From an uncultured Caulobacterales bacterium (GTDB taxonomy: Bacteria; Pseudomonadota; Alphaproteobacteria; Caulobacterales; CAYPOX01): 64,000 nucleotides of DNA. Both the position numbers and the translations under genes were made by a program. The stretch is from NCBI GenBank assembly GCA_964412525.1, contig CAYPOX010000002.1, positions 27 to 64,026 on the forward strand, given 5' to 3'. Shown one piece after another: positions 12,313 through 53,141 of the stretch; position 1 is the first letter of the stretch, and every line of letters starts with the position of its first letter. Under the pieces are notes generated by a model. The model did not search any database. It had not been told where the DNA came from and saw only the letters and a program-made list of their open reading frames with translations.

Positions 12313-12411
12313 GGCCCCGCCATTAACACAAGCGGGAAACGGTTCCGTCGCTGGATCTCACCTCAAGGGCGTTGCCCCGAACTGGCGACAACGTTGCTTA
12401 GGGCTTAAACC

Positions 12412-26505: not shown

Positions 26506-27003
26506 TCAGCTCGAGAGCATGGGCGCGCGGGTCCAGACCTCCGCGCCCAAAGTGCGCCCTTTCACTGTCGACCAGGCGCCGGCCATGCGGTCGTCTCCCG
26601 TCACCTCGAACAGGGCCGCGCCGCCATTGAACGCGATCGCCAGCGCCTTGGCGGAGGCGACCCCCAAGCCTTGATAGCTTTGGCCCTTCATGGCGCCGCT
26701 CTCTATGCGCCAATGCACGGCGTAGACATGGCCGGCAGGCCGGATGTCCACGGCCCCGGCGTAACGGGCACCGTTGGGCGCGAAGCCTTCGATCCGCCAC
26801 CGGCCGATCAGATCGACCCGCGGCGCCGGTTCGGGCGCCGGCGCGGGGGTCGGGCGTTTGCGGAACCAGCCGGCGGCGCGCCGCCAGAGGTTATGGATCA
26901 GACGGAGCGGATCACGCGGGGCGGCCGCGGAGTCGCGGCGAAGGGTCGTCGTCGTCATGTCGTGTCGTCGTTCGGACGGATCAGGGGCGGCGCGCGGGAT
27001 CAT
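26506..27003 (-). CDS. hypothetical protein, translationally coupled to the cadherin-like gene
   Basis: 165 aa. Its ATG (27003-27001) overlaps the upstream TGA (27002-27000) as ATGA. The C-terminal ~100 aa look beta-rich (GRWRIEGFAPNGARYAGAVDIRPAGHVYAVHWRIESG...). No family recognised. Confidence 0.5.
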   Translation of the reverse strand: MIPRAAPDPSERRHDMTTTTLRRDSAAAPRDPLRLIHNLWRRAAGWFRKRPTPAPAPEPAPRVDLIGRWRIEGFAPNGARYAGAVDIRPAGHVYAVHWRIESGAMKGQSYQGLGVASAKALAIAFNGGAALFEVTGDDRMAGAWSTVKGRTLGAEVWTRAPMLSS

Positions 27004-31426: not shown

Positions 31427-32965
31427 TCACTCCGTGAAGGCGGTCTCCAAAGGCAAACCGAACGCCTTCATCGCCGGTGCGGTGTTGACGAGGAAGCGAT
31501 CGGCCTGCTTGCGCAACTCGGCCTTCGCCGCGTCGTCATTCTCAGCAGGCTTGCCTTCAATCATCACATTGCGTCCTTTGGATCTCAGATCCGCCAACAC
31601 GCGATCGACGATGCCGTCCGCCGACCCGTCGCCGAAATGCTTGGCGTAGATCTGATCCATGGCGCTCATCGCGAACCCGGCGCCCAAGCCGGAGGCGAGC
31701 ACGTGGACGGTGCGTTCCGTCAAAGTGCGGTCCAAGACCTCGCGGTTGAACGGCTTCGGCGGCGCGCCATCCTTCCGCATCACCGGCGACGCCTGGCCAG
31801 AGATCAAAAGCGCTTCGACGGCGCTGTAAGCCTTCTCAAAGGTGTCGGCCCCGGATGCGGCATGGAGTTCGCGGATCGTCTTCGGGCCGTCCGCCAGGGC
31901 CTCGACCGCGGCGCGCACGACCGGCGTGTCGAATTTGGCCTGCCGTCCCATGAGCTGGGCTTCGAACTTAATCCCCTCGCCGCCGACCCGTAGCGCGATC
32001 ACGCTGTCGGCGAGAACGTCCCGCTGTTCATTGCGGCTCAATCGGCGACCGCCGCGGGTGTAAATGTCGCGCCGGAACTGGGCGTTGGTGCAGTAATCGC
32101 GCGCCAGCTCCCGCAACTCCATAGTGGGCAGCTCGTTGACAAGTTGGAGCTGATCCTGTGTCAACGTGTATCGGAAATTGTTTTCCGCAAACGTCGCCGA
32201 CGCCGCGAAGGTGAGCTTCGCCTCCCCCATCTCCGCCATCGCTTGGGTGACGTAGAGCGGATACCAGGCCTGATTGAGATACTCCTGGGCGAGATAATTC
32301 ACGGGCTTTTTCTCGAGCCCTTCCATCATCTTCGACATGCGCGCATTGGTGGCGAAAGCGACGGCCTTGGCGTCCTTCAGCTTCTCGCCGAATTGGATCG
32401 CCTGGCGCACCTTATGGGTGGATTGGCCCGGCACGATCGCCGCATATTCGGAAAACAGCCGCTGGAGCGGCGCGATCGTCGCCCAACCCGGCAGGGTGTT
32501 GTAGCTCACATAAACGAGCCCCCCCGGCGCCAAGAACTTCCGGATGAACTCCACCATCTCCCGGCGGTTCTCCGGCGTGATCCAGGAATAGACGCCATGG
32601 GTCACGATATAGTCGAACTGCGGAAAATCCGCATCGACCGCATCGGCGAAGGCCATTTCGTGAAACGCGACATTGCCGATATCGCCCTCCCGCGCGAGCC
32701 GTCGCGCATTGGAGATGTGCACGGGCATGAAATCGATCCCATGCACCTCCGCCTCCGGATTGGCCGCGGCGAAGACATTGGTGGACAGGCCGTTGCCGCA
32801 ACCAAGTTCGCAATAGCGAAAGCGCGCGCCGTCATGCTCCGGCGGCGCGACGCCGCGCGTGACGGCGGCGAAGTTCAAATGCGCCGGGCCGAGCTCTTGG
32901 AAAAATTGGGTCGTGTATTCCTGATCGACAACATACCCGTCTGACCAATCGGACATGGGTGACAT
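31427..32965 (-). CDS. SAM-dependent methyltransferase of the 'methyltransferase regulatory domain' (PKMT-like) family
   Basis: Track ORF 31427..33007; ATG 32965 follows AGGAAAGGA. RYCELGCGNGLSTNVF (motif I) and FDYIVTHGVYSWITPENRREMVEFIRKFLAPGGLVYVSYNTLPGW, which I recognise as the hallmark of this ~520-560-aa family. Confidence 0.8.
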   Translation of the reverse strand: MSPMSDWSDGYVVDQEYTTQFFQELGPAHLNFAAVTRGVAPPEHDGARFRYCELGCGNGLSTNVFAAANPEAEVHGIDFMPVHISNARRLAREGDIGNVAFHEMAFADAVDADFPQFDYIVTHGVYSWITPENRREMVEFIRKFLAPGGLVYVSYNTLPGWATIAPLQRLFSEYAAIVPGQSTHKVRQAIQFGEKLKDAKAVAFATNARMSKMMEGLEKKPVNYLAQEYLNQAWYPLYVTQAMAEMGEAKLTFAASATFAENNFRYTLTQDQLQLVNELPTMELRELARDYCTNAQFRRDIYTRGGRRLSRNEQRDVLADSVIALRVGGEGIKFEAQLMGRQAKFDTPVVRAAVEALADGPKTIRELHAASGADTFEKAYSAVEALLISGQASPVMRKDGAPPKPFNREVLDRTLTERTVHVLASGLGAGFAMSAMDQIYAKHFGDGSADGIVDRVLADLRSKGRNVMIEGKPAENDDAAKAELRKQADRFLVNTAPAMKAFGLPLETAFTE

Positions 32966-33133
32966 TCCTTTCCTTAAAGGCGAACGCGCGGGCGCGCCGA
33001 CGCGCACGAGCTTTCGTCTCGCTTGAACCAGGCTTGCGCGCGCCGCGCAACACCCCTCGCCGCCGGACGGCGGCCCAAAAGAAAAGGGCGGGGCCGAAGC
33101 CCCGCCCTGAAGGCGTGATCCGACTGGATCCGA

Positions 33134-36100
33134 TTAGAAGATGAAATCGGCCGTCGAGAAGCCGAGCGACGTCTCTGTAGAATTCAAATCGCCGTCGACC
33201 ACGATATCGAACGCCAAGTCCGCGGCATCGAGATTGCCATCATTATTGACGTCGACAAAAACGCGGAAGACGTCGTCCAGCGTGGCGTCGCCAACAAAGT
33301 CCGCAACCGCGTCGTTGAATTCGACCTTGACGCCATCATCCGTGCCGCCGTCATCGAAGAAGTTAGCTCCCCCAGCGGCCGCCGTGAAAACGCCAACCGA
33401 CGCGACCGTCCCGTTCACCGTCTGATTGGTGAGGCTCAAATTCGACAAATTGATCCGGTCGGACCCATCTTCGAAGTTGATAATCACGTCGCCCGTGCCG
33501 CCGGTGGCATTGGCTTCCGTCGACAAGATCGTGCCTGCGCCATCGTCGAAGAAGAACGTGTCCGCCGACGCGCCGCCGTCCAACACGTTCTGCGTGCCAG
33601 CCGCGCCAGAGCTGATCGTGTCCGCGAAGCCCGTGCCGATCACGTCGACAAAGCCCTCAAGACCGTCATCGTCCGCGCCGCCAACGAAGCCGTCAGTGTC
33701 GCCGAAGCCGCCGCCGGAAATGACAAGCTTCGTGTCGTCGCCGGACGTATCGTTGAACAGGTTCACCGTCACGCTCGTGGTGCCCAGCGAAAGGTCGAGA
33801 ACCTCATCGCCCGTACCCGAAGCCTTATCCTGCTCGCCGTCCGGAGAGACGCGGAACGTGTCAACACCGCCAGCCGTGAGGGTGATGATGTCTTCACCAC
33901 CGCCGTCGACAACAATGTTGTCGTCCGTTGAGTCAGCGACCTTATCGTCGCCGTCGCCGAGAATGATATTCTCGAGTTTGTTCGCTCCGAACGCCAGATT
34001 GCCCGCCGCTTCGATGTCGGTCGCGCCCGCCACCGTGCCGGCCGCGAGGTCGACGGTCAGATCCTCATTGTCTGCGGAAAGATCCGCCGTATCGCCGAGA
34101 ACCTCATTGCCTTCCGCATCCGCCGACAGATCGACCGACGTTTCGTCCACGCCGTCATCCGACAGAATGATCAGATCATCGCCGTCGCCGCCAAGGATCG
34201 TGTCCGCACCGTCACCATCACGGATCGTGTCCTCGCCAGCGCCGCCATCAATCGTGTCATCGCCGGCGCCGCCCTCGATAATGTCATCTCCGGCGAGGCC
34301 CGTCAGCGTGTCGCCTCCTTCGCCGCCATAGAGTTCATCGTCTTGGAGGCCGCCGGTGAGCACGTCGTCGCCCTTCAGACCAAAGAAGATCTGCGGGGCG
34401 GACCCGCCAACGAACGTGTCGACTTGCGTCGCGTCGTCCGAACCGACGATGACCTCAATGTTGAGGATCGAGCCGTCGTCGATCGTAAACGCTCCTGAGA
34501 AATCCGTGTCGAAGTTGTCGGAGGAACCCACCGACAAATCGATCAGCAGGGCCTTGCCGACGACATCTCGAAGATCGAGGACGTCGAAATTGCCCGCGTT
34601 GCCGTTGAACACGTCGTCGCCGCCCAGATCATCGGTGAAGACCAGGAAGATGTCGTTCCCATCGCCGCCATTCGCCTGATCTTCGCCTTTGCCGCCAACA
34701 AGAACGTCGATCCCCTCGCCGCCAAACAACACGTCGTCTTCATCGTCGCCGATCAAAACGTCGTTTCCAGCGCCGCCGTCCAACGTGTCCGTGCCCGTGC
34801 CAGTGGTCAAAAGCTGGACCTTGTTTGAGCCGGTCGTCGGAAGACCAAGATCCACGACCAAATCGACATCGAACGGATCCGGATTGCCGTCGCGGTCCAG
34901 GTCAATCGTCGTCGTGGAAAGCACCCGGTCGCCCGTCTTCAGATCGATCGCGCTTAGGGCCAAAGCGACCTCGGCGTCGTCGATCTGCAGGCGGTTACCG
35001 CCAATCAAGATGTCGTCGCCGCCGCCGCCCGTAAACGAGTCGTTGCCGCCATCGCCGAGGAACAGGTTCTCGCCGGCAGTGCCCGCTTCCGTGTCGCCGT
35101 TCACCGTGCCGACGAAAATGATGTCGCCGATCGGCTCGAACTGAATCTCGCCAAGTTGGCCGCCATAATCGACGCGCAAACCGTTGGTGAAGAGATCCGC
35201 TTCGTTGAGATCGAATGCGAGATCCGTGTCTTCGTCAAAATCACCGTTACGGTCGAGGTCGACGAAAATCCGGAAATTGTTGATATCGCCGATCTCTGTG
35301 CCACCGAGCTGCTCCGCCACTATGACGACATCGCCGCCAAAGATTGTGGAGTTGAAGAAGTCGGCCTTGCTGTCCGTGGTGCCGGTCGTCGAACTGACGC
35401 GGACATCAAGAACCTGAAGGGCGTCATCAATGCCGTCGCCATTCTCCGCGCCCTTGCCGCCATCAAAGGCGGCGTCATCGTCGCCCGGCGATTCATTGCC
35501 TTTAACGCCATCGCCATCGACGTCGAAGATCGCGTCGCCACCGGTGTTCTCAAGGCCGCCAGCCTTGTTCTCGATCGAAAAATCGGAAATGTCGATCAGA
35601 TCGTTGCCCGCAGTAAAGCCGACGATCGTGTCGATGCCTTCCGTCGTCGAGTCGAGCGCACCGCCCGGGTTGTTGTCGTCGAACACCAACTCCGCACGAC
35701 CGTCATTAAACTCGAGATCGACCAGCGGGTCGACCGAGTCGGTGAACTCGATCCGGATCACCAAGTCCCGAGCCGAAATCGTGCCGGCGACGTCGTTGAG
35801 CTCCGAAACGAGCACCAAGGTGTCACCGGAGTCGATCGCCCCATTATTGTTGGTGTTTTCATAGTAGAAGATACCGACATCGTTGTCGCTATCTTTGACA
35901 ACCAAGAAGATATCATCGCCATTATCAAGATCAGAGATCACGCCGAACTTGGCTGCAGCATCCCCAAGATCAAAATCTTCAATCTTAATGCCGATATTGT
36001 CTTCCAAGAAGAACACGCCGCCTTCATCAACATCAAAGCTGTTGATCGAACCGGCGTTGATCACGCCATTCGTGGTCAACACGTTCGTCAGTCCGCCCGA

Positions 36101-39100
36101 GAACACCACAAAGTCTTCCGAAGTCGTGAAGTTCGAAACCGAGTCCGCCGAACCCGTGCCGACTGAAAGGCCGCCACCGGTCGGAACCGTGTTGCCGTCC
36201 GACACAGACGTGTAGATCACCCGATCGACCAGCTCGCCCGCAGGCGCGCCACTATTGGCAAGGTCGATGACGTCGCCGCCTGCTTGGCCGGTGATCTCGT
36301 CCTCGCCTTGGCCAGCCACGATCGTGTCCGCACCGTCGCCGCCGAGCACAACGTCGTCGCCCTCGAAGGCGTTGATAACGTTCACTGCCGACGAGCCGGT
36401 GATCACGTCGTTATATTTTGTGGCGTTGACGTCCTCGAAGCTGACGAACGTCGTGGTGTCGAGATTGCCGTCTTGGACGACGCCAGTGACCAAGTTGATG
36501 AAAATTTCTTCGACGCCGTCATCGTCGAAGGTGTCGTCGTCGGTCGCGCTGTCCTTGAACGGATCGATGTTGAACGACAGGTCCGCGCCGCCATTACGAA
36601 GATCGATCAAGTCCGACTTACCCGTACCGATGAAGGTGATGTCGCCTTCATTCGCCACGTAATCAACGCCGCCGAGATTGCCGGTCGTGATCTTCGCGTA
36701 TTGCTCGGCGTTCGTGTCGAAATCATTGACAAACCGACCAAGCGGATCGGCGTCGTCATTCGAGTTGCCGGTTAGATCGCCCGCGCCGTCGGATTCTTGG
36801 AATTCGCCCAAGAAAACCGTAATCGGCGCGCCGTCATTGGTGTTGTCGCCATCGTCCGAAAAGGTGTTGCCGGAGTAGTCGAGCACGTTCGCGCCGCCAT
36901 TCAGGAAGAAGTCCTGATTACGGTCCGCCTCATTGTTAGTGAGACGGATCGTGTTGGCGAAATCGGAGCCGATCACGCGATCGAATTCGAAGTTGCCGCT
37001 GTCCTCGATGAACGTAACAAACAGCGTGTCGTCAGCGCCCGTACCCTCTTTAACCGTGACGGTCTCGAAGGACGTGTCCGCACTGTCCTCCTCGCCGTTT
37101 TCGTCCGCGACGTCGCCCGCATTGAACTGAACGGTCAGATTCTCGTCCGTGGACGAAAGGTCGATCGTGTTGACGCCGGTGCCGCCAACATACTGCTCAG
37201 CTCCGCCATCCTTGAAGAGATCCACACGATCCTTCGCGCTGCCGTTCAAGTTGTTATCGTCACCTTCATCAACGAGCACCCAATCGACGTCGGCGATAAA
37301 GTCCGCCTCTTCATCTACCGAGGTGATCACGAAGTTCAGATCCGAGCCCTCATTACGATAATCGCCGATATCCGTGCCGCCGGCCAGAGAGAATTGAAGC
37401 AGCACGACATTGTTCGCCGCCACTTCGCCGGCCACGTCGATCTTGCCGTCGCCGTCGTCGGCGATGCCGAACTCGGTCGTGAAGCCCAAAGCGGCTTCAA
37501 GGAAGCCAACCTTCAGACCCGCATCGTCGTCTTGGTTCACCTGATTGTCCGCCAAGATGACGCGGTCGTTGCCGGACGAACCCGTGACGCGCTCGAACTG
37601 AGTGATGCCGTCGATTTCAACGGTCTCATTGCCGAGGGTCGAGTCGTTCACCGTCACGCCGCCGGCCTCGAGAGTGTTGCCCTCCAGGATCGTCAGCGAG
37701 CTGACCGCGCCGTCCACGCCGCCCTTGGTGTCATCCAAGGCGACCGGGCCGCCGAAGTTGACCACCGCGCCGCCGAGATTGGAGACGTCAAGGACGTCTT
37801 GCCCAAAACGAACGTCCGCATCGTCGTCGTCGTCTAGATCAGTGAAGTCGATGCCGGTCGCCGCCAAGGTGGCGTCAAAGCGCTCGACATCCACCAACGT
37901 ATCGTCGGACCCGCCAGCGTAGCTGATCACATCCGTTTCCGTCGCCGTTTCAACGGTGAAGGTGATCGTCGGCCGCACCGAAAGATCGTCTTCCGCGTCG
38001 CCCGCGACGCCGTCGCCGTCATTGTCCGCCGTGGACGTCACGTTGGAGTGGTCGACGGTGACCTTGTCGTCGTTCTCATTGCGGCCCGTGATGTCGCCGT
38101 CCGTCTGATCGCCGAGGGACAGCGTGTTGGCCACGCCGAGCTGCGACTGGTCGAGATAAACAAGATCGTTGGCTTTGCCGGTGATGATGTTTTCCGCACC
38201 GAGCACAAGCACCAGTCCGCCCAGGTCGACTTCATCCTTATCCGTAAAGATGTCGTCATTGGTCAGCGCGTCGTTGTCGTTGACGTCCTTGTCATAGGTG
38301 ACGCCCGCATCGCCGGCGCCGTTGGTCTCCGTCGTCAGGCGGATGTTCAGACCTTCGAAGTCCGGTTGGTTGTCGCCGCCCGCGTTCACATTGTCGTCCG
38401 GACCGATGACGTTGTCGCCCGCACGGTCCGCCACGATGTCGTCGGACACCGCCGACAGATCGTAGGTGTCGTTCTTCGTGTTGGACAGCGTACGCAACGT
38501 CTCAACGTTGAGGAGGTTCGTCCGGTACTCGATCTCCGCATCCGCATCGACATTCACGTTCACCACGGTCGTTTGATCAGCCGCCAAGAGGCCCGGCGCG
38601 ACGATCGTGAACTCCGCGAAGTCGCCGAACAGCTGCTCGTCGAACACGACATAGTCGTCGTCGCCGCCGCCGTCGATCGTGTCGGCGCCAATCAAGAGAA
38701 CGGACTTCGTGCCGTAAATAAGGTCGTCGCCCGATCCGGCGTTGATGACGTCGTCAACGTCCGAACCGACGATCAGATCGTCGCCGTTCTTGCCGTTGGT
38801 GTTCTCGTCAAAGCCCGTGATCGTGCCTTTGAACAGCGAACCGTCCGCACGGTCTACAAGAATGCCGGCCACGGAGTCTTCGTCCTCGAACGTGTCGTTC
38901 GTGCCCGCGCCCACGAAGAGAATGTCCTCTTTCGTGAAACCGCCATCCGGATCGTTGCGCACGTCGAAGCCGAACAAATCGACCGCCACGCCGACCGCAT
39001 CGTCCTGACCCGTATTGTCGAAGATCTTGACGAACTGCTCGCTCGCCGAGTCCACGTCGAGGAAGGCGACGTGACGGTTGGCGCCGCCGAACTGCGCGTC

Positions 39101-42100
39101 CGCCTGCGTCTCCAGACGGAATGCCAACTCGTCATTCGACTTGTCTTCGTCAAAGTCGAGCGTCGTCGCGCCGAGGCGCACGTCGATATTGGCCGCCTGT
39201 GAGTTCGGGTCACGGGATTCATCGGCGATCGAGTTGATAAACGTGTTGACGAAGAGTTCAAAGTCCGCAACGCCATTGTCGTTGTTGCCATCGGCCCCTC
39301 CTCCAGGGGCCCCCGTATTGTCCACAAACACCGTGCCGGCATAAGCCGCGCTTTCGAATTCGACGCCGTTGAGGGTGAGCTTCAACGTGTCGCCGACCGC
39401 AATCGTCGTTAGGTCGATGACGAACTCCACGATTTGGTCATTGGCGAGCGTCGTGCCGGTGTCGAGAACCCCATCCGCATCGAAATCGGACTGCACGGCG
39501 TCATTGCCGCCAAAGCGCTGCGCGCCGAAATCAATGACGAAGTCCGCGCCCTGGATGTCCAGATCGTTCGTCGTCTCATCGACGCGCGTATTGGTGTTCC
39601 GCGCGCTGTAGTCGACGAAAATCAGGCGGTCGCCGAGCAGAACCTCATCTAGGGTCGTAACGGCTTGAACGTCGAGCGGATCGTCGTCGATGTTGCCGGA
39701 GACCGAAGCGTTCTTGAAGGTGCGGCCAGCCGCATCCGTGATCGTGATGGTGGTCGCGCCGGCGACCGCCGTGATGTCCGGATCCGTGTTGGCTTCGTTG
39801 AACTCCGCCGCCAGCTCAGTCAGCGTCGTGGCGCCGCCCTCCAAGTCATTGATGCCGACATTGACGAGTTCGAAGCCGTCTTCGTCACTACCGATTTGGT
39901 AGCTGAAGAAGGTGATGTCGGGAATGTCGTCTTCGCCGCCGTCGACCGCATCGAAATTGAGGAATTGGTAGATGATCTGAGATTCCGCGTCGAGCTGGGC
40001 GCCGATGCGGTAATCCTTGGTGAACAGAAGCTCGCCAGTCGTCGGATCAACGTCTTGGAAGCCGTCACCGTTCAGATCGGCCTGGCGCCAGATCAGGTCG
40101 GCGTCATCGCTGACGGAGAACAGGAAGTCGTCCTTACCGTCATTGCCCGACAACAGGTCATCGCCTTCGCGGCCTTCCAGGACGTCGTCCCGGCCATTCG
40201 CATAGAGAGCGTTTTCGTTCGTGTCACCGCGCAGATCGAAGGGCTGGTTGATGCCGCCCAGATTGGCGCGCTCCGGAAGCACCTCAGCGTTACCGTCGCC
40301 GATGATGTTGTAATCAAAGCCGCCAAGGCCCGTCGTGATGACGTTTTCGAAGTTATCGATCTCAACCACGCCGCCGACCGCAAGCTCGGGCGCGACCGTC
40401 GATTGGAACGCCGTGCCGCCGACTTCAGAGTTGCCGTAATTGCGGAACGCCGCCAGGCCGGAGCCGACATTGCCGTCTCCGATGCCGTCTAAATTCGCGT
40501 CGCCGCCGGAACCGTTCTGGTTGCCGAGGTCGAAACGGATCGTGTTGTCCGAAAGACCCGCGCCAAGAGCGCCGCCGGACACGCCCGTCGTGCCGACGGT
40601 CGTGCCGACCGCCGCGCCGAGCGAGAACTCGGTGAGGAACAAGGTGTCGCCGTCATCAACCGGGTCGGCGTCATCGCGAATTTGGATCGAACCCAAATTG
40701 GTCGTGTCGTCGACGTTGCCGTCCGCCAAGCGGTCGGAAAGGTCGAACATTACGAAGTCATCGTCGGCGCCCGCATCGATCGAGTCCAACCCGTCGTCAA
40801 GAATCTTGCCGTCGGTGTCGTTGGCCGTCACGCGCACGGCGCCGAGCGTCGCCGCCGTTTCGAGGTCGCCTTGATCAAGCAGGTTCGAGTTGTTGCCGTT
40901 GCGGATCAAGAATTCGAGGTCGCCGCCGAGGATGACGTCATCCCCGTCGCCGGAACGGATCCGGTCATTGTCGTAGCCGCCGATGATGACGTTGCCCACC
41001 GGCGTGCCCTCAACAACGAGCTGCGCCGTGGAGCCCCGACCAAACGGCAGGAATGCGTCGCTCAAATCCCCGTCCTTATTGGGATCGGTCGCCGCGAGCG
41101 CGATATAGGTCTCGTCCGTGTCGCGCAGACCGCCAAGCTTCAGGCCCGCTTCAAAGAATTGCGCGCCGACCTCGGCGTCGAACACGCCGTAGAGGTTGCC
41201 CGAGGCGTCGAAGCTTTCGACGTCGATCAGGTCCGCCACCGTGACGCCCGACGAGTCCGTCACGTCCGCCGTGCCGGCGCCAGTGAACTGGCTGCCCGCG
41301 CCGCCTTCGTCGAGACGGACCGTGAACGGCTCTTCATCGTCCGTACCTTCGAAGAGCAAGAAGTCATTGTCCTGCAGCAGGGTGACTTCGTCGTCGCCGA
41401 TGATGCGCTCGTCGTCGACCGTCGAGCCGCCGTCGATCACCGTGAAGCCTTGGTTGCCGATGACGTTCTGATCCGGGATCGAGCCTTCAATGAAGATGAA
41501 GTCCGTGTTCCGACCCGTTTGAACCCGGTCGCCGCCGCCATTGACGCTATTGCCCTGAGCGCCGTTGACGAAACCGCCCGGCGCGATGAAGTCGTTGCCG
41601 ATGCCGGTCAGGATGTTGTCGCCGCCGAGACCGCCAAGGACCACGTTGCCGTCCGTCGCCGTGCCGTCGCCGCCGAAACCTTCGCCGCGGAAGTTCAACG
41701 ACCCGATGAAGTTGTTGGTCGCGTCGAACGCGCCGCCATTCACGTTGCGCGGCGCGGCGTCGAACAGCTTGAAGTTCGTGACGTTCAGGATCTCGCGGGC
41801 GTTGAACTCAGCCTGGGTGTCGAACACGCCGTCGCCGTCAAGGTCGATCTGCTCGATCTGCTCGCCCGTGTCCGTGATGTCGACGGAGAGATTGGCGTCG
41901 CCCGTAACGCGCAGCAGCGCCAGATCGCCCTCGCCGGTGAGGTCGATTTCACCGTTGCCGTCCAGGTCGCCCTGCTCGGGGCGAAGCGGGTTTTGGCCGC
42001 CATTGGTGTTGACCGTGAAGGTGACGATCTCGCCGGACAGATCCGTGAAGCCTTGGGAAACCTCGCCGCCGGACGGGATGCCAGGCCGACCCTCAGAGAA

Positions 42101-42778
42101 GCCGATCTGAATGAAGTGCTGCAGGCCGGTTTGCAGGCCGAGCGTGCCGAATTCCGGCGCCGCGTCGACGAAAGCCGCCACGTCCGGGTTGTTGTTCAAA
42201 TAGAAGACCGGATCAAAGCCTGGCGTGAAGCGCGCGTCGACACCCGGGGTGAAGACGTTGTCGCCGTTATTGTCCAGGAACGCCGGGCGCAGGCCTTGGC
42301 GGATTTCGCTCTCGCCGAATTCGAAATAGTGCAGATAGGCGTTGACGCCGGCCGCTGCGACATCCGGGTTCGCGGCGAGATAGGCCGCGGTGTCGAAGAA
42401 CTGGTTCGGGTCGGCTTGCGGATCGGAACCGTCAAGGGCTTGCTGATCGTCGAGGGAGTCGAGGTCGTTGCCGAAGCGCACATAGTGTTCAAAGGCCGAG
42501 CCCACTTGGCCGGCGTCGATGGCGTCTTGCGCCGCCGGGTTGTTCGCCAGGTAGCTCGCGTCGTCGAACAGATCGTCGTTCGCCGGCTCCAGGAACGGCG
42601 AGAAGGGACGGCCTTCGTCATTGCCGAAAGCGATGAAGTGATCGAAGGCGTCGATGCGCACCTCTTCGACCGTCGTGCCGGGCTCCGCGTTTACGAAGAA
42701 CGTTTCGCGGAGATCCGCGTTCGGGCCGACCGAGAGATAAAAGGTCGAGTCGAAGATCAAGATGTCGAAGTCAGTCAT
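33134..42778 (-). CDS. giant (3214-aa) acidic RTX-type repeat protein, probable T1SS adhesin
   Basis: Track ORF 33134..42847; ATG 42778 follows AGAGGGGA. No signal peptide. N-terminal four-repeat FDxxxYLxxNPDV module. Scattered and dense GGxGxD nonapeptides ([78 protein letters not shown]). Ends ...[19 protein letters not shown]. Confidence 0.9.
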   Translation of the reverse strand: [3214 protein letters not shown]

Positions 42779-43067
42779 CGGGTGTCCCCTCTTTGCAAAC
42801 CGATCAGCGAGCACAGCGCGCGCGCACGGACGCCGCACGCGCCGCACACTTGCCTACTCGGGTTGCGTAACTAACAAACACCCGTGAGTCTTCCAACCCG
42901 CCCAAGGCGCGATTGTGAATCTTTCTTTAGATTTTTTTTAACCAGATCCGCCCGGAACGGCGGCCTTGCTGAATTTGGATTCTAGCGCGATGGTTAGGAA
43001 GTTGCTATATAAGGACGGATGGCGACGCGGTCGCGGCCGCGCGCGGAGGCATTAGGACGAATCGCTC

Positions 43068-43486: not shown

Positions 43487-45118
43487 ATGAGCGCCGCGCT
43501 GTTGGCCTTTCCGCAAGGCCCCGCGCCCTGGTCCAACCAGGAGCGCGCCGACGTTTATCGCGCCTTTCGTCTCCTGACCCAACAAGGCGCGGCGATCGAA
43601 CTGGTCGAAGGCGCCGCCGAAGACGGCGCGCCCTGGTTCGCCTTCGTGGATGCGGAAACGGGCGAGTCCATCCTTCATCTTGGCCGGGAAGGCGCCGGCG
43701 TGACCGCAGTCGACCGCTTGGGCCGGGTGCTGGCCCGCGGCCGCGACATGCGCCAGGTGATCGACCAAGCCGCCGGCGCGCGGCTGGCGCCGGTCTCGCC
43801 CTTTGGCGGCGCCGGCGAGGTGTTCGCCCATCCCGCGACCGGGCTGGCCGCCCTCGTCATCTCGCTCGCCGTGGTGGCGGAGACCGAGGCCTATGCGCAA
43901 TTGGCGCGCTTGGCGATCGACGCGGATGAGGCGGATCTCATTTCGGACGATCGGATGATCGTCGCCTCCGCGACGACGACCGTTGCGGCCGCTGCGCCTG
44001 ACGCGGGTTCCGACGCCGCCCCGAAGACGACGCCGACGCCGGCCGAAGCGGCGCAGGCCGCGGTCGCGGCGGCCCTGCCTGCACCGGGCGCGGCGTCGAT
44101 CGACATGGATTTGGCCGCGGTCTTGGCGTCCGCGATCGACGCGGCGCTGGCGGCGGCGACGTCCGCAGAGAGCTTGGCGCCCCTTCCCGCCCCCGAAACC
44201 GTGGCGGCGACGATCGATGCGGCGCGGCTGGAGCTCGACGGGCTTCGCGCGACGGCGGACGCCTTGCGCGCCGCCGCCGACGACGGATCGAGCGCCATTC
44301 TCGCGCAACGCCTTTTGGATGCCGCCGACATGGTCGATGCGCGCGTCGCGGCGGCGGAGGACCGGCTCGCCGAGGCGGAGGCGGCCTTGGAGACCGCCCT
44401 CGCCGAGGGCGAGACGACGGCGGCGCTTGAGAACGGCTCGGCGGTCCTGGGCGGCGACGGCGACGACGTGATCGCGGCCGGCGACGGCGACGACGTCATC
44501 TTGTCGGGCGCCGGCGCCGATTTGATCGACGCGGGCGACGGCGACGACGTGGTGTTCGCCGGCGTCGGAAGCGACGTGGTTCTGGGCGGCGACGGCGATG
44601 ATCTGATTTCGGCCGGCGACGGCGACGACGTGGTGGACGGCGGCGACGGGAACGACGTGATCCAAGGCGGTGCGGGCGACGACGTGATCGCCACCGGCGC
44701 GGGGGATGACGTGGTGGACGCCGGAGACGGCGACGACGTGCTGTTCGTCGGCGACGGCCACAATGTCGTGGACGGCGGCGACGGACGCGACCTCTTCGTG
44801 CATGACGCGACGAACGGCGTCGCGGTCCTGCGCGGCGGCGAAGGCATCAACGAGTTCGTCGCGGAAAGCGGCGACGGCGTCTATGTCCTCACGCCCGGCG
44901 ACATCGACGCCATCTATCTTCGAGGCGAAGAAGGCCATCTTGTCGTCGAGAACTTCGTCGTCGGCGAAGACTGGATCTATGTCGCCGATTCTCGGCTCGC
45001 CGACGTTTCTGTCGAATGGACCCATGGCGGCATTCGCATCGCTTTCAGCGAGGACGCCAGCCTGACCCTCGCCGGCTATGACGCCCTTCCGACGGCGCTC
45101 GACGATCTGTTGATCTGA
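43487..45118 (+). CDS. 543-aa RTX (hemolysin-type calcium-binding) protein, T1SS substrate candidate
   Basis: No signal peptide. Unrecognised N-terminal ~130 aa, an Ala-rich helical middle, then about 12 consecutive nonapeptides ([38 protein letters not shown]...). Located immediately upstream of the ABC/MFP genes. Confidence 0.85.
   Translation: [543 protein letters not shown]
44447..44797 (+). repeat. tandem 27-nt RTX nonapeptide-coding repeats (GGCGACGGCGACGACGTG-type)
   Basis: aa 321-437 of the 543-aa protein. The DNA-level repetition is visible as recurring ggcgacggcgacgacgt(g/c). Confidence 0.85.
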
Positions 45119-45237
45119 ATAGGGTGCGGCGTCTTTGACGGGCGCGCATGGATGCGCGTATGGCTGGCGCCGTCCGCGGAGCCGGCCCGGAGCGACCCGC
45201 GCCGAACGACGGAACGACCATTGAGGAACGAATTCTG

Positions 45238-47010
45238 ATGTCGCGATCCCCTGCGCCCGTGGCGGCGCTGTTGAAAGAGGCTTTGTCCCAGGTCCGCCGC
45301 GCCCTGGTGATCGTCGGCGCCTTCAGCTTGGCCTTGAACCTGCTGATGCTGACGGCGCCGCTCTATATGTTCCAAGTTTTCGACCGGGTGCTCGGCTCCG
45401 GCCGGGTCGAGACGCTGTTGCTGCTCACCCTGATCGCGGGCTTCGCGCTGATGACCTATGGCGCGCTGGAAGCGATCCGCCAGCGCCTGCTCGCCCGGGT
45501 GTCGACCTGGCTGTCGCTCGCCGCCTCGGACGATCTGATCGACCGCTCCGTGCGCGCGGCGACCCGCGGCGCGCGCTTTGGCGGCCAGCCTTTGCGCGAC
45601 CTGGCCACCATTCGCAGCTTTCTCGGCGGCCAGGGCGTGACGCCGCTCTTCGACGCCCCCTGGATGCCGATCTTTCTGGGCGTTCTCTTCCTGATGCACC
45701 CGATTCTGGGCATGCTGGCCGTGGGTGCGGCGATCATCCTGTTCTGCCTGGCGGTCCTGAACGAAGTTCTGACCCGCAAGCCCTTGGGCGAAGCCTCCGG
45801 CCTCCAGTCGACGCTTCTCAACCAGACCGACGCGGCGGTGGCCAACGCCGAAGTGCTCGAGGCCATGGGCATGACCAAGGGCCTGGTGAAGCGCTGGATG
45901 CGCCAGAACGCCGAAGTGCTGACCCGCCAGCAGGCCGCCGCCGATCGGTCGGGCATGCTGCTCGGAGCCACGAAATTCACCCGCCTGTTCGTGCAGGTCG
46001 GCATTCTGGGCGCCGGCGCCTATCTCGTCCTGCAAGGCCAGCTCACCTCCGGCGCGATGATCGCGGGCTCGGTGTTGATGAGCCGGGCGCTCGCCCCGGT
46101 GGAGCAGGCGATCGGCGCCTGGCGCCAGCTTGTCGCCGCCCGCACCGCCTATGATCGTCTGAAAAAGGTGATCGCCGCCCTGCCAGACCGAGAGCCGTCC
46201 ATCGAGCTGCCCGAGCCCAAGGGCAAGCTTGAGGTGCAAGGCGTGGTCTACGCTCCGCCCGGCGCGGCGAAGCCGATCCTGAAAGGCGTCTCCTTCGCTT
46301 TGGCCCCCGGCGAGGCCATGGGCATGATCGGCCCGTCGGCTTCCGGCAAATCCACCTTGTGCCGGCTTCTGGTCGGCGCGGCGCCGCCTTCCTCCGGCTC
46401 GGTGCGCCTTGACGGAGCGGAGATGAGCCAATGGGACGCCGAAGCGCGCGGCCCCTATATCGGCTATCTCCCCCAAGACGTGGAGCTGTTCCAAGGCACG
46501 GTGCGCGACAACATCGCCCGGCTGCAGTCGGACGCGTCCGACGCGGACGTGGTCGACGCCGCCCAACGGGCGGGCGTGCATGAGATGATCCTGCATCTGC
46601 CCAAAGGCTATGACACGGAAATCGGGCCGCGCGGCGCCCAGCTCTCCGGCGGCCAGCGCCAGCGACTGGGCCTCGCCCGCGCCTTGTTCGGCGCGCCCAA
46701 ACTGATCGTGCTCGACGAACCCAACGCCAGTCTCGACCAGGCCGGCGAGGCGGCGCTGCAGGACTCGATCTTAAAGGCCAAGGAAACCGGCGCCACGGTC
46801 ATTCTCGTCGCCCACCGCCCGGCCATGATGAAGCATGTGGACAAGGTTCTGCTCATGCGGGACGGCCAGGTGGAGGCGTTCGGGCCGCGGGATCAGGTGC
46901 TCGCCAAGGTGATGCGCCCCGCCCCCGTGCCGACGCCCAAGGCGGGCGGCGGCCAAAGCGGTCCGGCCGGCTCGGACATGGTGACCATCACGGACATGGC
47001 GGGCGGCTGA
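45238..47010 (+). CDS. type I secretion system ABC transporter (PrtD/AprD/HasD-type, no C39 peptidase domain)
   Basis: Track ORF 45148..47010; ATG 45238 follows GAGGAA. TMD start LNLLMLTAPLYMFQVFDRVLGSGRVETLLLLT is typical of PrtD-type transporters. Walker A GPSASGKSTL, signature LSGGQRQRLGLARAL, Walker B LIVLDEPNASLD. Confidence 0.9.
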   Translation: MSRSPAPVAALLKEALSQVRRALVIVGAFSLALNLLMLTAPLYMFQVFDRVLGSGRVETLLLLTLIAGFALMTYGALEAIRQRLLARVSTWLSLAASDDLIDRSVRAATRGARFGGQPLRDLATIRSFLGGQGVTPLFDAPWMPIFLGVLFLMHPILGMLAVGAAIILFCLAVLNEVLTRKPLGEASGLQSTLLNQTDAAVANAEVLEAMGMTKGLVKRWMRQNAEVLTRQQAAADRSGMLLGATKFTRLFVQVGILGAGAYLVLQGQLTSGAMIAGSVLMSRALAPVEQAIGAWRQLVAARTAYDRLKKVIAALPDREPSIELPEPKGKLEVQGVVYAPPGAAKPILKGVSFALAPGEAMGMIGPSASGKSTLCRLLVGAAPPSSGSVRLDGAEMSQWDAEARGPYIGYLPQDVELFQGTVRDNIARLQSDASDADVVDAAQRAGVHEMILHLPKGYDTEIGPRGAQLSGGQRQRLGLARALFGAPKLIVLDEPNASLDQAGEAALQDSILKAKETGATVILVAHRPAMMKHVDKVLLMRDGQVEAFGPRDQVLAKVMRPAPVPTPKAGGGQSGPAGSDMVTITDMAGG

Positions 47011-47089: not shown

Positions 47090-48544
47090 ATGAAACCGCC
47101 CTTCACCCTCACCGGATGGATTCCGAAAGGCGCGCCGTTCAGCCGCCGCGCCAAGAAAGAGGCCGACGCGCCGAATCTCGAGGCGATCGAGGACGCCGAA
47201 GCGCCGCCGCCGATGCCGGAAGGCCCTTCCCCCTTTGCGGAGAAGCCGCAACTCATCAGCCTGTCGAAATCCACCATCGCCGCCGGCGCGGTGGTGGTCG
47301 GCGTGTTCTTCGTCGGCTTTGGCGGCTGGGCGATGACCGCGCCGCTCTCCTCCGCCGCGATCGCGCCGGGCGTGATTTCGCCCAATGGCTATCGCCGGAC
47401 GGTGCAGCATCTGGAAGGCGGCATCATCGCGGACATCCTTGTCGAGGACGGCGACACGGTGCGGGCGGGCGACCCGCTGGTCGTGCTCGACGACGTGCGC
47501 GCCCAGGCGAATTACGAAGTCATCCGGAACCAAACCTTCACCAATCTCGCCATCCAGGCGCGCCTGCTCGCCGAGCTGGCGGGCGACGTCGAGATTGGTT
47601 TTCCCGCCCAGGTCCGCGCCGCCATGAACCGCCCCCAGGTGGCCGACGTGGTGACCGCCCAAAGCAATCTCTTCGACGCCCGGCGCGAGTCCCGCACGAA
47701 GCAGATCGAGATCCTCCAGGCGCGCATCCGCCAATTGGACGAGCAAATCATCGGCTTTGAGGAGGAGATCGCCTCCCAGGATCGGCAGATCTCCATTTTG
47801 GACGAACAGATCGCCGACCAGCAGCAGCTCTGCGACAAAGAGCTTTGCCTGAAGTCCAATCTGCTCGGCCTGCAGCGCCTGCAAGCGGAGGTTGAAGGCG
47901 AACGCGCCCGCAACCGCGCCGCCATCGCCCAGGCCCGCCAATCGATCGGCGAGACCGAACTCCAGATCGCCGCGGTCGACACCGAGCGGCTGGACGAAAT
48001 CAACACGCAGCTGACCCAGGTCCGCGGCGAACTCGCCGAGCTTGAGGAACGCCTGATCGTCGGCGAGGACACGGTGAAGCGCACCATCATCGCCGCCCCG
48101 ATCGACGGCACGGTGGTCAATCTGCGCTACAAGACCTTGGGCGGCGTGATCCGCGCCGGTGAGCCGATCGTGGACGTGGTGCCCGACGACGAAGAGTTGT
48201 TGATCGACGCGCGGGTCTCGCCCGTGGACATCGACAACGTTAAGCCGGGCCTCAAAGCCTCGGTCGTGTTCTCCGCCTTCAAGCAGCGCAATATCGGCCG
48301 CATCGAAGGCGTGGTGCGCACGGTCTCCGCGGATGCGCTGGTCGACGAGAACACCGGCATGAGCTATTTCGCCGCCCGCATCGAGGTCGACGACGAGGTG
48401 GTGAAGCGCCAGCTTCCGCCCGATGCGGAGCTGACCCCGGGCATGCCGGCCGAGGCCTTCATCATGACCGGCGACGGCACCGTCTTCAGCTATCTCATGG
48501 ATCCGGTGACCGGCACGCTGCGCCGGGCGATGCGGGAGTTCTAA
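47090..48544 (+). CDS. HlyD-family type I secretion membrane fusion protein
   Basis: 484 aa with a single N-terminal TM (AAGAVVVGVFFVGFGGWAM). TVQHLEGGIIADILVEDGDTVRAGDPLVVLDD (lipoyl-like motif), a long coiled coil, and C-terminal ...GMPAEAFIMTGDGTVFSYL. Confidence 0.9.
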   Translation: MKPPFTLTGWIPKGAPFSRRAKKEADAPNLEAIEDAEAPPPMPEGPSPFAEKPQLISLSKSTIAAGAVVVGVFFVGFGGWAMTAPLSSAAIAPGVISPNGYRRTVQHLEGGIIADILVEDGDTVRAGDPLVVLDDVRAQANYEVIRNQTFTNLAIQARLLAELAGDVEIGFPAQVRAAMNRPQVADVVTAQSNLFDARRESRTKQIEILQARIRQLDEQIIGFEEEIASQDRQISILDEQIADQQQLCDKELCLKSNLLGLQRLQAEVEGERARNRAAIAQARQSIGETELQIAAVDTERLDEINTQLTQVRGELAELEERLIVGEDTVKRTIIAAPIDGTVVNLRYKTLGGVIRAGEPIVDVVPDDEELLIDARVSPVDIDNVKPGLKASVVFSAFKQRNIGRIEGVVRTVSADALVDENTGMSYFAARIEVDDEVVKRQLPPDAELTPGMPAEAFIMTGDGTVFSYLMDPVTGTLRRAMREF

Positions 48545-52926: not shown

Positions 52927-53141
52927 GGTTCGGCGCGCCGTAACGTCGCACCTCTTGCCGCCACGACGCTCCGCTGTCGGAAGGCTGGGGATGATCGCTC
53001 AATGTTTCGCAAAAGTTTCACGGAAGGCTGCTAGCTCCCGGCCATCAGGGGACACGGGTCCGTGGGTTGGCCACGACCCTCCGCGCGCCATCCGTCGACG
53101 GGTCATGCGGCGCGCGCCAAGGTTCAAAGGGGAGAACATCC

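What the first reader, a model, noticed from the sequence alone, without database searches (positions are those of the whole stretch)
33137..36151. Giant RTX protein carries three copies of a C-terminal-secretion-type domain, two of them internal and in tandem
Seen: three segments share the same layout. Copy 1 (35756-36151): ADSVSNFTTSEDFVVFSG...NDVGIFYYENTNNNGAIDSGDTLVLVSELNDVAGTISARDLVI. Copy 2 (35189-35644): IDTIVGFTAGNDLIDISDFS...INNFRIFVDLDRNGDFDEDTDLAFDLNEADLF. Copy 3 (last ~130 aa, 33137-~33530): GDVIINFEDGSDRINLSNLS...DDVFRVFVDVNNDGNLDAADLAFDIVVDG...STADFIF(stop). Known: many alphaproteobacterial RTX proteins end with exactly this kind of domain (..DxIxxFxxGxDxIDLS ... xDxNGDGxxDFxI ... 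DFxL), which contains the T1SS signal. Inference: the gene may be a fusion of formerly separate T1SS substrates. Alternatively, internal secretion-like domains may serve another role such as folding nucleation, processing sites or stalling in the translocon.
Basis: partly seen in the sequence, partly recalled or inferred. Interest (0 to 1): 0.6.

Follow-up and report, generated by a model that had tools for sequence, protein, structure and literature searches.

The report
RTX protein with buried old C-terminus
A 3,214-residue secreted calcium-binding (RTX) protein keeps its family's original tail buried inside, because about 658 residues with a new secretion tail were added after it; internal copies of this tail domain are common in giant RTX proteins, so this is a clear but ordinary example.

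Summary
The three segments exist at the stated coordinates. Copies 2 and 3 are homologous to each other (hhalign 95%, E 3e-8) and to the serralysin-type cap that ends many RTX proteins. An independent profile of 21 other RTX C-termini places its only two positive hits in this protein on copies 3 and 2. Copy 1 is only weakly related to them.

The fusion or extension idea is supported by comparison with relatives. The two closest relatives (P0013, 2,272 aa; P0026, 2,445 aa) are collinear with this protein. Both end with copy 1 plus copy 2, then a stop codon and an intrinsic terminator. Their ends, ADFIFA* and TDFIFVI*, align with an internal GDIIFV in the window. After it come 658 aa of RTX blocks plus copy 3 (…ADFIF*), then the window's own terminator. 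The downstream methyltransferase and the type I secretion (T1SS) ABC gene are shared with the P0026 locus.

I found no free-standing homologue of the added part. A 1-nt indel, real or a sequencing error, at a GTGA overlap could explain the join.

Internal copies are not unusual: 35 full-length internal caps occur in 12 of 120 giant RTX proteins. Verdict: real, largely explained, modest novelty.

The parts
33134..42778 (-). Giant RTX protein gene. The ORF is open from 42847; the likely start is Met24 at 42778, giving 3,214 aa, identical to P0001.
   Evidence: Pfam HemolysinCabind, E 7.8e-18, 11 stretches.
36260..36343 (-). Short RTX nonapeptide block (GGDGADTIVAGQGEDEITGQAGGDVIDL) directly upstream of copy 1.
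35747..36226 (-). Copy 1 (ORF aa 2208-2367): a cap-like domain, internal in this protein and also in its two closest relatives.
   Evidence: Collinear with P0013 and P0026. Best match of the c1 family is the terminal domain of the wider family. Not significant against c2, c3 or the canonical profile.
35108..35695 (-). Copy 2 (ORF aa 2385-2580): a serralysin-type C-cap that forms the true C-terminus in the closest relatives.
35111..35128 (-). Relic of the ancestral extreme C-terminus, GDIIFV. It aligns with ADFIFA* of P0013 and TDFIFVI* of P0026.
35101..35104 (-). GTGA: an in-frame GTG (codon 2582) whose TG, plus the next A, forms TGA in the +1 frame. This is a possible former start/stop overlap of two coupled genes.
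   Evidence: Chance of such a motif in a 5-codon window is about 6%. Inference only.
33137..35110 (-). C-terminal extension of 658 aa, absent from the relatives: RTX blocks plus copy 3.
   Evidence: It matches only itself in the window. No free-standing homologue found.
34643..34804 (-). RTX block within the extension (ORF aa 2682-2735).
34166..34327 (-). Main RTX block within the extension, seven consecutive nonapeptides (ORF aa 2841-2894).
33137..33562 (-). Copy 3 (ORF aa 3096-3237): the present C-terminal cap, ending ...STADFIF*. Presumed T1SS secretion signal.
   Evidence: AF2 model pLDDT 61. Best PDB matches are serralysin-family C-terminal domains and AlgE R-modules.
33085..33108 (-). 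Intrinsic terminator-like hairpin (10-bp stem, 9 GC, then a T-run) 26 nt after the stop codon.
   Evidence: The relatives have equivalent terminators right after copy 2.
31427..33007 (-). Methyltransferase (Methyltransf_12 plus MethyTransf_Reg) directly downstream. It serves as a synteny marker.
45148..47010 (+). T1SS ABC transporter. It has no N-terminal C39-like domain; ABC_membrane starts at aa 54.
   Evidence: 42% identical to the partial ABC gene in the P0026 locus.
47090..48544 (+). HlyD-family membrane fusion protein of the T1SS.
43487..45118 (+). Second, smaller RTX protein (543 aa) just upstream of the T1SS genes. It ends ...ALDDLLI*.

Best explanation
The gene encodes a T1SS substrate of a family of RTX proteins of roughly 2,300-2,500 aa. 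In its closest relatives the protein ends with copy 1 followed by copy 2, and copy 2 carries the extreme C-terminal motif DFIF.

In the window's lineage the stop codon after copy 2 was lost. A 658-aa module now follows in frame, made of RTX blocks plus its own serralysin-type cap (copy 3, ending ADFIF*). Because T1SS recognises an uncleaved signal at the very C-terminus, any C-terminal addition has to bring its own signal. So copy 3 is now the working signal, and copy 2 is a buried former terminus.

The internal copies most likely act as structural C-caps. During C-to-N export they emerge after the new module and fold with calcium. They protect or nucleate the adjacent beta-roll and add steps to the folding ratchet. 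They are probably not signals or cleavage sites.

**Shown:** homology of c2 and c3 with canonical caps; the relatives ending at c2 with a terminator; synteny; T1SS genes next door.

**Inferred:** the direction of the event (a gain), the mechanism of the join (possibly a 1-nt insertion at a GTGA overlap with a downstream RTX gene), and all functional roles.
For: **Relatives end at copy 2.**
- P0013 aligns in one gapped BLASTP alignment with P0001 25-2524 onto 4-2250 of its 2,272 aa (29% identity, E 5e-169).
- P0013 and P0026 both end with c1 plus c2. Their last residues align with the internal GDIIFV.
- Both genes are followed by strong intrinsic terminators 50-60 nt after the stop.
- The window has no terminator after c2 and a strong one after c3.

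**Synteny.**
- In the P0026 locus the giant gene is directly followed by the same kind of methyltransferase, and a homologous T1SS ABC gene is present.

**Wider family.**
- At least eleven further collinear family members end with a single terminal domain. Both the c1 and the c2 families match that domain best.

**Homology of c2 and c3.**
- hhalign gives c3 against the c2 family 95% (E 3e-8), c3 against the canonical profile 88% (E 3e-6) and the c2 family against the canonical profile 90% (E 2e-6).
- The canonical HMM's top two hits in the protein are c3 and c2.
- A canonical example matches PF08548.
- The c3 model best matches serralysin C-terminal domains (1go8 at 3e-5, also 1kap and 1sat) and AlgE R-modules.

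**Secretion context.**
- T1SS ABC and MFP genes lie 2.3 kb upstream of the gene's start.

**Retention of c2.**
- The internalised c2 is as similar to its orthologues (33-34%) as they are to each other (34%). This fits either retained function or a recent fusion.

**Literature.**
- The serralysin C-terminal domain caps the RTX roll and holds the signal in its last ~20 aa. C-terminal flanking caps are needed for calcium-induced folding and for the Brownian ratchet (PMC6891781; PMC3034196).
Against: - Only two relatives carry the c1-c2 tandem, at 29% identity. There is no close relative of the window's genome, so neither the timing nor the reality of the junction can be checked against a second sequence.
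- No free-standing homologue of the extension was found.
- c1's relationship to c2 and c3 is weak.
- The AF2 model of c1-c2 was unusable (pLDDT 34) and the c3 model has only moderate confidence (pLDDT 61, TM about 0.45).
- c2 is not directly preceded by RTX repeats, so a role in capping a beta-roll is less obvious for it than for c1 and c3.
- No secretion, folding or processing data exist.
Confidence: 0.66

Rival explanations
1. Two genes were joined by an error or by a very recent frameshift. In the real genome the giant gene would end two codons after IIFV at the TGA of GTGA. A separate gene of about 655 aa, with copy 3 as its own signal, would start at that GTG. A 1-nt indel in the assembly merges the two.
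For: There are 7 nt (GGCACGG) between GTC (the V of IIFV) and the +1-frame TGA. Removing one base gives ...IIFVxR* overlapping a GTG start. From the GTG the downstream part reads MNGDTEAGTAGENLFLGDGGNDSF..., which by my own recollection resembles the N-terminus of small RTX proteins; this was not tested. c2 shows no extra decay. The protein is a singleton known from one contig only.
Against: A GTGA motif arises by chance in about 6% of 5-codon windows of this gene. No Shine-Dalgarno-like sequence precedes the GTG. Other genes inspected in the window are intact full-length ORFs. No terminator or intergenic relic follows c2. The P0026 locus has no RTX gene between the giant gene and the methyltransferase.
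Confidence: 0.13
2. The internal copies, copy 2 above all, are still functional secretion or processing elements. They might give extra docking sites for the ABC/MFP complex, stall points in the translocon, or a cleavage site that yields two secreted products.
For: c2 keeps a near-intact terminal motif (DIIF against DFIF) and orthologue-level conservation.
Against: T1SS signals of this class are described as uncleaved and C-terminal (PMC6891781; PMC3034196). From my own recollection of Ghigo and Wandersman 1994 on PrtG, not checked here, the terminal motif must be exposed at the very end. Full-length internal caps ending in SDFVF are common in other giant RTX proteins as repeated modules. That argues for a structural role rather than a signalling one.
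Confidence: 0.08
3. The long form is ancestral, and P0013 and P0026 lost the last 658 aa.
For: Only three members of the subfamily are known, so the direction of change rests on parsimony.
Against: Both relatives end at the same aligned residue with a canonical DFIF end and their own terminators. At least eleven more distant members also lack the extension. A truncation would leave a working signal only if c2 had stayed functional inside the protein.
Confidence: 0.05
4. The resemblance among the three segments is only compositional (Asp/Gly-rich, beta-strand-rich) and they are not homologous domains.
For: c1-c2 is not significant. Single-segment phmmer and Pfam/NCBIfam scans find nothing. A 3-sequence profile found only the protein itself among 1.84 billion representatives.
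Against: c2-c3 and c3-canonical are significant by hhalign. c3 and c2 are the only positive hits of an independent HMM across 3,214 aa of similar composition. Controls using other windows of the same protein rarely reach the observed scores. For c1 this rival remains partly open.
Confidence: 0.05

Closest known systems
Serralysin-family C-terminal domain (AprA 1KAP, serralysin 1SAT, PrtC 1GO8; Pfam PF08548 Peptidase_M10_C)
   Same: RTX beta-roll followed by a C-cap that carries the uncleaved T1SS signal and ends in an acidic residue plus hydrophobic residues (DFIF here). The layout is collinear: DxFxF ... DxIxxFxxGxDxIxL ... DxxxDG ... DFxF. These are the best structural matches of the c3 model. 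The adjacent ABC exporter lacks a C39-like domain, like PrtD.
   Different: There is no protease domain. c1, c2 and c3 do not reach any Pfam or NCBIfam threshold. The caps are longer, with Asp/Gly-rich insertions. Two cap-like domains are internal, and c2 has no RTX repeats directly before it.
AlgE mannuronan C-5 epimerase R-modules (Azotobacter vinelandii; 2AGM, 2ML1-3)
   Same: They are a structural match to the c3 model at E 3e-4 to 3e-3. From my own knowledge, not tested here, these are RTX-plus-cap modules repeated along one secreted protein, so that only the last one is C-terminal.
   Different: AlgE modules are close paralogues interspersed with catalytic A-modules. Here the copies are very divergent (25% identity between c2 and c3), and one is demonstrably a former terminus.
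CyaA RTX domain (five RTX blocks with linkers and caps; block V cap)
   Same: Several RTX blocks in one substrate. A C-terminal cap is needed to start vectorial C-to-N, calcium-driven folding that ratchets secretion (PMC6891781; abstracts of PMC9120197 and PMC10511787, listed).
   Different: There is no acylation or pore-forming region. Only weak structural matches were found (7rah, E about 2). The CyaA linkers are not serralysin-type caps ending in DFxF.
Giant multi-module RTX proteins such as P0038, P0074 and P0012 (Azospirillum Calx-beta protein)
   Same: They contain many internal full-length copies of the same canonical cap, each preceded by RTX repeats and mostly ending in SDFVF.
   Different: In those proteins the internal copies quoted from P0038 and P0074 look very alike, which suggests internal module duplication; this was judged by eye and not measured. 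In the window the internal copy 2 is orthologous to the C-terminus of related proteins.

Membership tests
RTX protein / type I secretion substrate | Glycine- and aspartate-rich nonapeptide repeats (PF00353) | tested here: met
   Pfam HemolysinCabind, E 7.8e-18, 11 stretches. Repeat blocks mapped.
RTX protein / type I secretion substrate | Uncleaved secretion signal at the extreme C-terminus, here of the serralysin class (acidic residue plus hydrophobic residues at the end) | tested here: met
   The protein ends ...STADFIF*. c3 matches the canonical C-terminal profile (12.9 bits; hhalign 88%, E 3e-6). This was tested at sequence level only.
RTX protein / type I secretion substrate | Dedicated ABC exporter and membrane fusion protein encoded nearby | tested here: met
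   ABC at 45148-47010 and HlyD-family MFP at 47090-48544. No outer-membrane factor was seen among the ORFs scanned.
RTX protein / type I secretion substrate | Demonstrated export dependent on the C-terminal signal | not testable with these tools
   Needs secretion assays.
Pfam PF08548 Peptidase_M10_C (serralysin C-terminal domain) | Score above the Pfam gathering threshold (20.7 bits) | tested here: not met
   c1, c2 and c3 give no PF08548 hit even at E<=10. A canonical RTX C-terminus (P0050) scores 34.7 bits. Only fold-level similarity is seen, for c3.
NCBIfam type I secretion C-terminal target domain models (e.g. TIGR03661, recalled from memory) | Hit to any NCBIfam model for a T1SS C-terminal target domain | tested here: not met
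   The NCBIfam scans of the whole protein and of the three segments returned no such family. I did not verify that this specific model is in the library.
LapA/MpIBP-type RTX adhesins | N-terminal retention module, long tandem Ig-like extender region and a single C-terminal RTX-plus-signal region | tested here: not met
   No NCBIfam or Pfam hit other than RTX. No long tandem repeat appears in the self-comparison.
Family of roughly 2,300-2,500-aa PF00353-only RTX proteins (P0013, P0026, P0069, P0095, P0106 and others) | Collinear similarity over the N-terminal 1,100-2,500 residues | tested here: met
   BLASTP: P0013 over query 25-2524, P0026 over 93-1969, and the others from 288 to about 1360-1970.
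Family of roughly 2,300-2,500-aa PF00353-only RTX proteins (P0013, P0026, P0069, P0095, P0106 and others) | Protein ends with the family's terminal cap domain (one domain, or the c1-c2 tandem) | tested here: not met
   The window protein continues for 658 aa beyond the aligned family terminus. This is the respect in which it departs from its family.

The most novel reading that the evidence does not exclude
Giant RTX proteins may grow by serial C-terminal capture. A downstream, translationally coupled T1SS substrate gene would be fused by a small frameshift at a start/stop overlap (GTGA here). It supplies a new terminal signal and leaves the old one as an internal fossil cap, which is then kept because it still helps calcium-driven folding and ratcheting. 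If this is general, the many internal caps ending in SDFVF in other giant RTX proteins would partly record such captures. This locus would then be a natural experiment on whether a T1SS signal works only at the extreme C-terminus.
Probability: 0.22. Interest if true: 0.5.

Novelty: new member of a known kind. Interest (0 to 1): 0.3.

Why it matters
The locus is a clean comparative example of how a very large T1SS substrate can be lengthened at the end that carries its secretion signal. The addition brings its own signal, and the old terminus persists inside the protein with its DFIF-like motif almost intact.

This yields ready-made constructs for testing two things: whether serralysin-class T1SS signals depend on their position at the extreme C-terminus, and whether internal caps nucleate folding.

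It also shows that motifs of the 'C-terminal secretion domain' type are frequent inside giant RTX proteins. They should therefore not be read as evidence of a fusion unless a comparison with relatives supports it.

Tried and rejected
**Searches that led nowhere.**
- Word-index homologue searches with c3 alone and with c1+c2 found nothing. They also failed to return the protein itself, which is in the database. These negatives are therefore unreliable, probably because of low-complexity handling.
- A profile of the three copies against 1.84 billion representatives returned only the protein itself and two spurious hits (a WD40 protein and a repeat protein). It did not return P0013 or P0026 either, so its sensitivity at that database size was too low.
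- phmmer with single segments against the 122 retrieved proteins hit only the protein itself.
- Pfam and NCBIfam scans of the segments gave no family.
- phmmer against the PDB gave only non-significant EF-hand/dockerin-like loop matches.
- tblastn of c2, c3 and the 658-aa extension against plasmids gave no match.
- The methyltransferase found no relative in representative genomes.
- The extension in representative genomes gave only RTX-level matches.
- The junction region in metagenomes found nothing.
- The family alignment in metagenomes returned 18 loci. From the C-terminal sequences inspected they look like generic RTX or unrelated proteins rather than family members.
- An exact look-up of contigs encoding P0001 found nothing on record.

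**Analyses that were uninformative.**
- The AF2 model of the RTX+c1+c2 region, built with a 3-sequence alignment, was unusable (pLDDT 34).
- A first crude HMM that still contained RTX repeats was dominated by RTX hits and was replaced by a trimmed one.
- The GC3 profile along the gene shows no step at the junction, so it says nothing about a foreign origin.

**Ideas rejected.**
- The extension is not an internal duplication of another part of the gene. The self-comparison shows only RTX-level similarity.

Full report
**What is there.** The finding lies in one uninterrupted minus-strand ORF, 33134-42847. From Met24 (nt 42778) its product is identical to a 3,214-aa database protein, P0001. That protein is a singleton known from one NCBI contig of 64,293 bp. 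Pfam recognises only RTX nonapeptide repeats (E 7.8e-18, 11 stretches). NCBIfam gives only sub-threshold serralysin and RTX-toxin matches through the repeats.

The neighbourhood fits a type I secretion (T1SS) substrate. An ABC exporter without a C39-like domain lies at 45148-47010 and a HlyD-family adaptor at 47090-48544. A second RTX protein of 543 aa lies at 43487-45118. A methyltransferase lies directly downstream at 31427-33007.

**Checking the observation.** All quoted strings are at the stated coordinates. Pairwise similarity is weak but real for two of the three pairs.
- Smith-Waterman against 1,000 shuffles gives c1-c3 z 4.35 (0/1000), c2-c3 z 3.35 (5/1000) and c1-c2 z 1.46.
- Other windows of the same Asp/Gly-rich protein almost never reach the c1-c3 and c2-c3 scores.
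- BLASTP gives 8e-4, 5e-3 and not significant for the same pairs.

Several searches with the segments alone failed. Two of them did not even return the protein itself, so I treat them as insensitive, not as evidence of absence.

**The informative result: relatives.** A full-length search returned a set of PF00353-only proteins of about 2,300-2,500 aa that are collinear with the query.
- P0013 (2,272 aa) aligns in a single BLASTP alignment, query 25-2524 onto 4-2250, at 29% identity and E 5e-169.
- P0026 (2,445 aa) aligns over query 93-1969 and again at the RTX block before copy 1.

Both relatives end with copy 1 followed by copy 2. Their last residues...DFTIADFIFA* and ...PVFTDFIFVI*, align with ...FEPIGDIIFVG inside the window protein. 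The part with no counterpart in the relatives is 658 aa (33137-35110).

Both relatives' genes are followed, 50-60 nt after the stop, by textbook intrinsic terminators. The window has no terminator-like site after copy 2. It has a strong one (10-bp stem, 9 GC, then a T-run) 26 nt after the stop that follows copy 3.

The P0026 locus is syntenic with the window. Its giant gene is directly followed by methyltransferases 33% identical over their full length to the window's. The same contig carries an ABC exporter 42% identical to the window's. There is no RTX gene between the giant gene and the methyltransferase in that locus.

At least eleven more distant family members end with a single terminal domain.

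The parsimonious reading is that the window's lineage gained the 658-aa module after a former C-terminus.

**Are the three copies one domain type?**
- I built a profile from the C-termini of 21 other RTX proteins with the RTX repeats trimmed off. In the 3,214-aa protein its only two positive hits are copy 3 (12.9 bits) and copy 2 (11.6 bits). The next hit scores -0.2.
- hhalign gives c3 against the c2 family 95% (E 3.4e-8, 110 columns), c3 against the two c2 homologues alone 77% (E 2e-5), c3 against the canonical profile 88% (E 2.9e-6) and the c2 family against the canonical profile 90% (E 1.8e-6).
- A canonical member (P0050) matches positions 87-188 of Pfam PF08548, the serralysin C-terminal domain (34.7 bits).
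- An AF2 model of the last 260 aa, built with a 25-sequence alignment, has moderate confidence (pLDDT 61, pTM 0.61). Its best PDB matches are the C-terminal domains of serralysin-family proteases (1go8 at 3.4e-5, also 1kap and 1sat), followed by AlgE R-modules.
- Copy 1 is different. It is not significant against c2, c3 or the canonical profile. However, the c1 family best matches the terminal domain of the wider family: score 29.9 over 109 columns, ranked first of 31 windows along that family's alignment, with unrelated windows at 22 or less. The c2 family behaves the same way, with score 28.7 over 99 columns.

So c2 and c3 are serralysin-type C-caps. Copy 1 is probably a divergent relative. 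The AF2 model of c1-c2 was too poor to settle this (pLDDT 34).

**How unusual are internal copies?** They are not unusual.
- Running the canonical profile over the 120 giant RTX proteins gives 86 internal and 28 terminal hits at 9 bits or more.
- With stricter limits (at least 15 bits and at least 65 of 82 profile positions), there are 35 internal copies in 12 proteins. Of these, 34 are directly preceded by RTX repeats, and most end in SDFVF before the chain continues.

'RTX block plus cap' is therefore a common internal module. AlgE R-modules, which are among the structural matches to the c3 model, and, from the literature, the multi-block CyaA RTX domain are comparable multi-module precedents (PMC6891781). 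What is specific to this locus is that copy 2 is orthologous to the true terminus of related proteins.

**How the join may have happened.** The junction DNA reads GAC ATC ATT TTC GTC GGC ACG GTG AAC GGC GAC. Three codons after the relic terminus there is an in-frame GTG. With the next base it forms GTGA, which puts a TGA in the +1 frame. Seven nucleotides (GGCACGG) separate the V codon of IIFV from that TGA. With one base fewer, the upstream gene would end ...IIFVxR*, overlapping a GTG start of a 655-aa RTX protein beginning MNGDTEAGTAGENLFLGDGGNDSF....

A single-base insertion could therefore have fused two translationally coupled genes. The same logic means an assembly indel could mimic a fusion.

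The motif has about a 6% chance of occurring in any 5-codon window of this gene. No Shine-Dalgarno-like sequence precedes the GTG, and GC3 shows no step at the junction. I found no free-standing homologue of the extension and no close relative of the junction. This step is an inference.

**Mechanism proposed.** T1SS substrates of this class are exported C-terminus first, using an uncleaved signal in the last residues of the cap. Calcium-driven folding of RTX rolls requires the C-terminal flanking cap and ratchets the chain outward (PMC6891781; PMC3034196).
- Copy 3, ending ADFIF*, is therefore the working signal and the first folding nucleus.
- Copies 2 and 1 emerge later and most likely serve as structural caps or folding nuclei. 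Copy 1 sits right after a short RTX block at 36260-36343.
- Copy 2 is as similar to its orthologues (33-34%) as they are to each other (34%). So it is either retained for function or only recently internalised.

That internal copies act as extra signals, stall sites or cleavage sites is not excluded but has no support.

**Verdict.** The fusion or extension idea is supported by comparative evidence. The 'formerly separate gene' detail remains inferred, and a sequencing artefact at the junction cannot be ruled out (about 13%). Since internal caps are widespread and the module types are known, this is a new member of a known kind. It is a good illustration of C-terminal growth in a T1SS substrate, and of modest interest.

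Noticed in passing
window 42000-42780 (-), ORF aa 32-84, 118-161, 152-186, 211-258: The N-terminus of the giant protein carries about four degenerate repeats of the type FYLxxNPDVAAAGVNAYxHYxxFGxxEGR (self-BLAST E 0.003-0.02). Similar repeats open P0013 and P0026. No Pfam family matched.
   Followed up: partly
window 27000-31370 (-) and 53067-55724 (+): A 1,456-aa cadherin/Big_9 protein and an 885-aa 5'-nucleotidase-like protein both carry DUF5648 (PF18885), at aa 1160-1295 of 1,456 and aa 779-876 of 885 respectively, and neither has RTX repeats. A shared surface-anchoring or export role for this domain would be worth checking.
   Followed up: no
window 43487-45118 (+): A 543-aa RTX protein lies immediately upstream of the T1SS ABC/MFP genes. 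It has an Ala-rich N-terminal half and a tail (...VVENFVVGEDWIYV...SLTLAGYDALPTALDDLLI*) that resembles copy 1 more than copies 2 and 3. It is likely a second substrate of the same exporter.
   Followed up: partly
window 34600-34720 (-), ORF aa 2735-2796, and 33790-33900 (-), ORF aa 2983-3029: Inside the extension there are two partial cap-start-like motifs: DIFLVFTDD..DVFNGNAGNFDVLDLRDV and DTFRVSPDG..GDEVLDLSLG. The canonical profile scores them at about 0 bits, which is not significant.
   Followed up: partly
L001 14335-15033 (locus of P0026): The relative's locus encodes a SapC-family protein (PF07277) next to the giant RTX gene and the methyltransferases. From my recollection, not checked here, SapC is linked to S-layer protein export in Campylobacter fetus, which would hint that this protein family is S-layer-like. 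No SapC homologue was found in the window by tblastn.
   Followed up: partly
window 48601-49566 (+), 49968-50984 (+), 31427-33007 (-), 10186-13959 (-): Three methyltransferase genes and two glycosyltransferase genes lie on either side of the RTX/T1SS genes. This suggests a surface-polysaccharide or protein-modification island linked to the secreted proteins.
   Followed up: no
window 35300-35560 (-), ORF aa about 2430-2475: Copy 2 of the window protein carries an Asp/Gly-rich insertion of about 45 aa (GGLENTGGDAIFDVDGDGVKGNESPGDDDAAFDGGKGAENGDGIDD) that is absent from P0013 and P0026 at that position.
   Followed up: no
Homologous-protein tool behaviour (against 38): Word-index searches with Asp/Gly-rich sub-segments did not return the parent protein, even though it is in the database. 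Negative results for low-complexity queries with that tool should not be trusted.
   Followed up: yes
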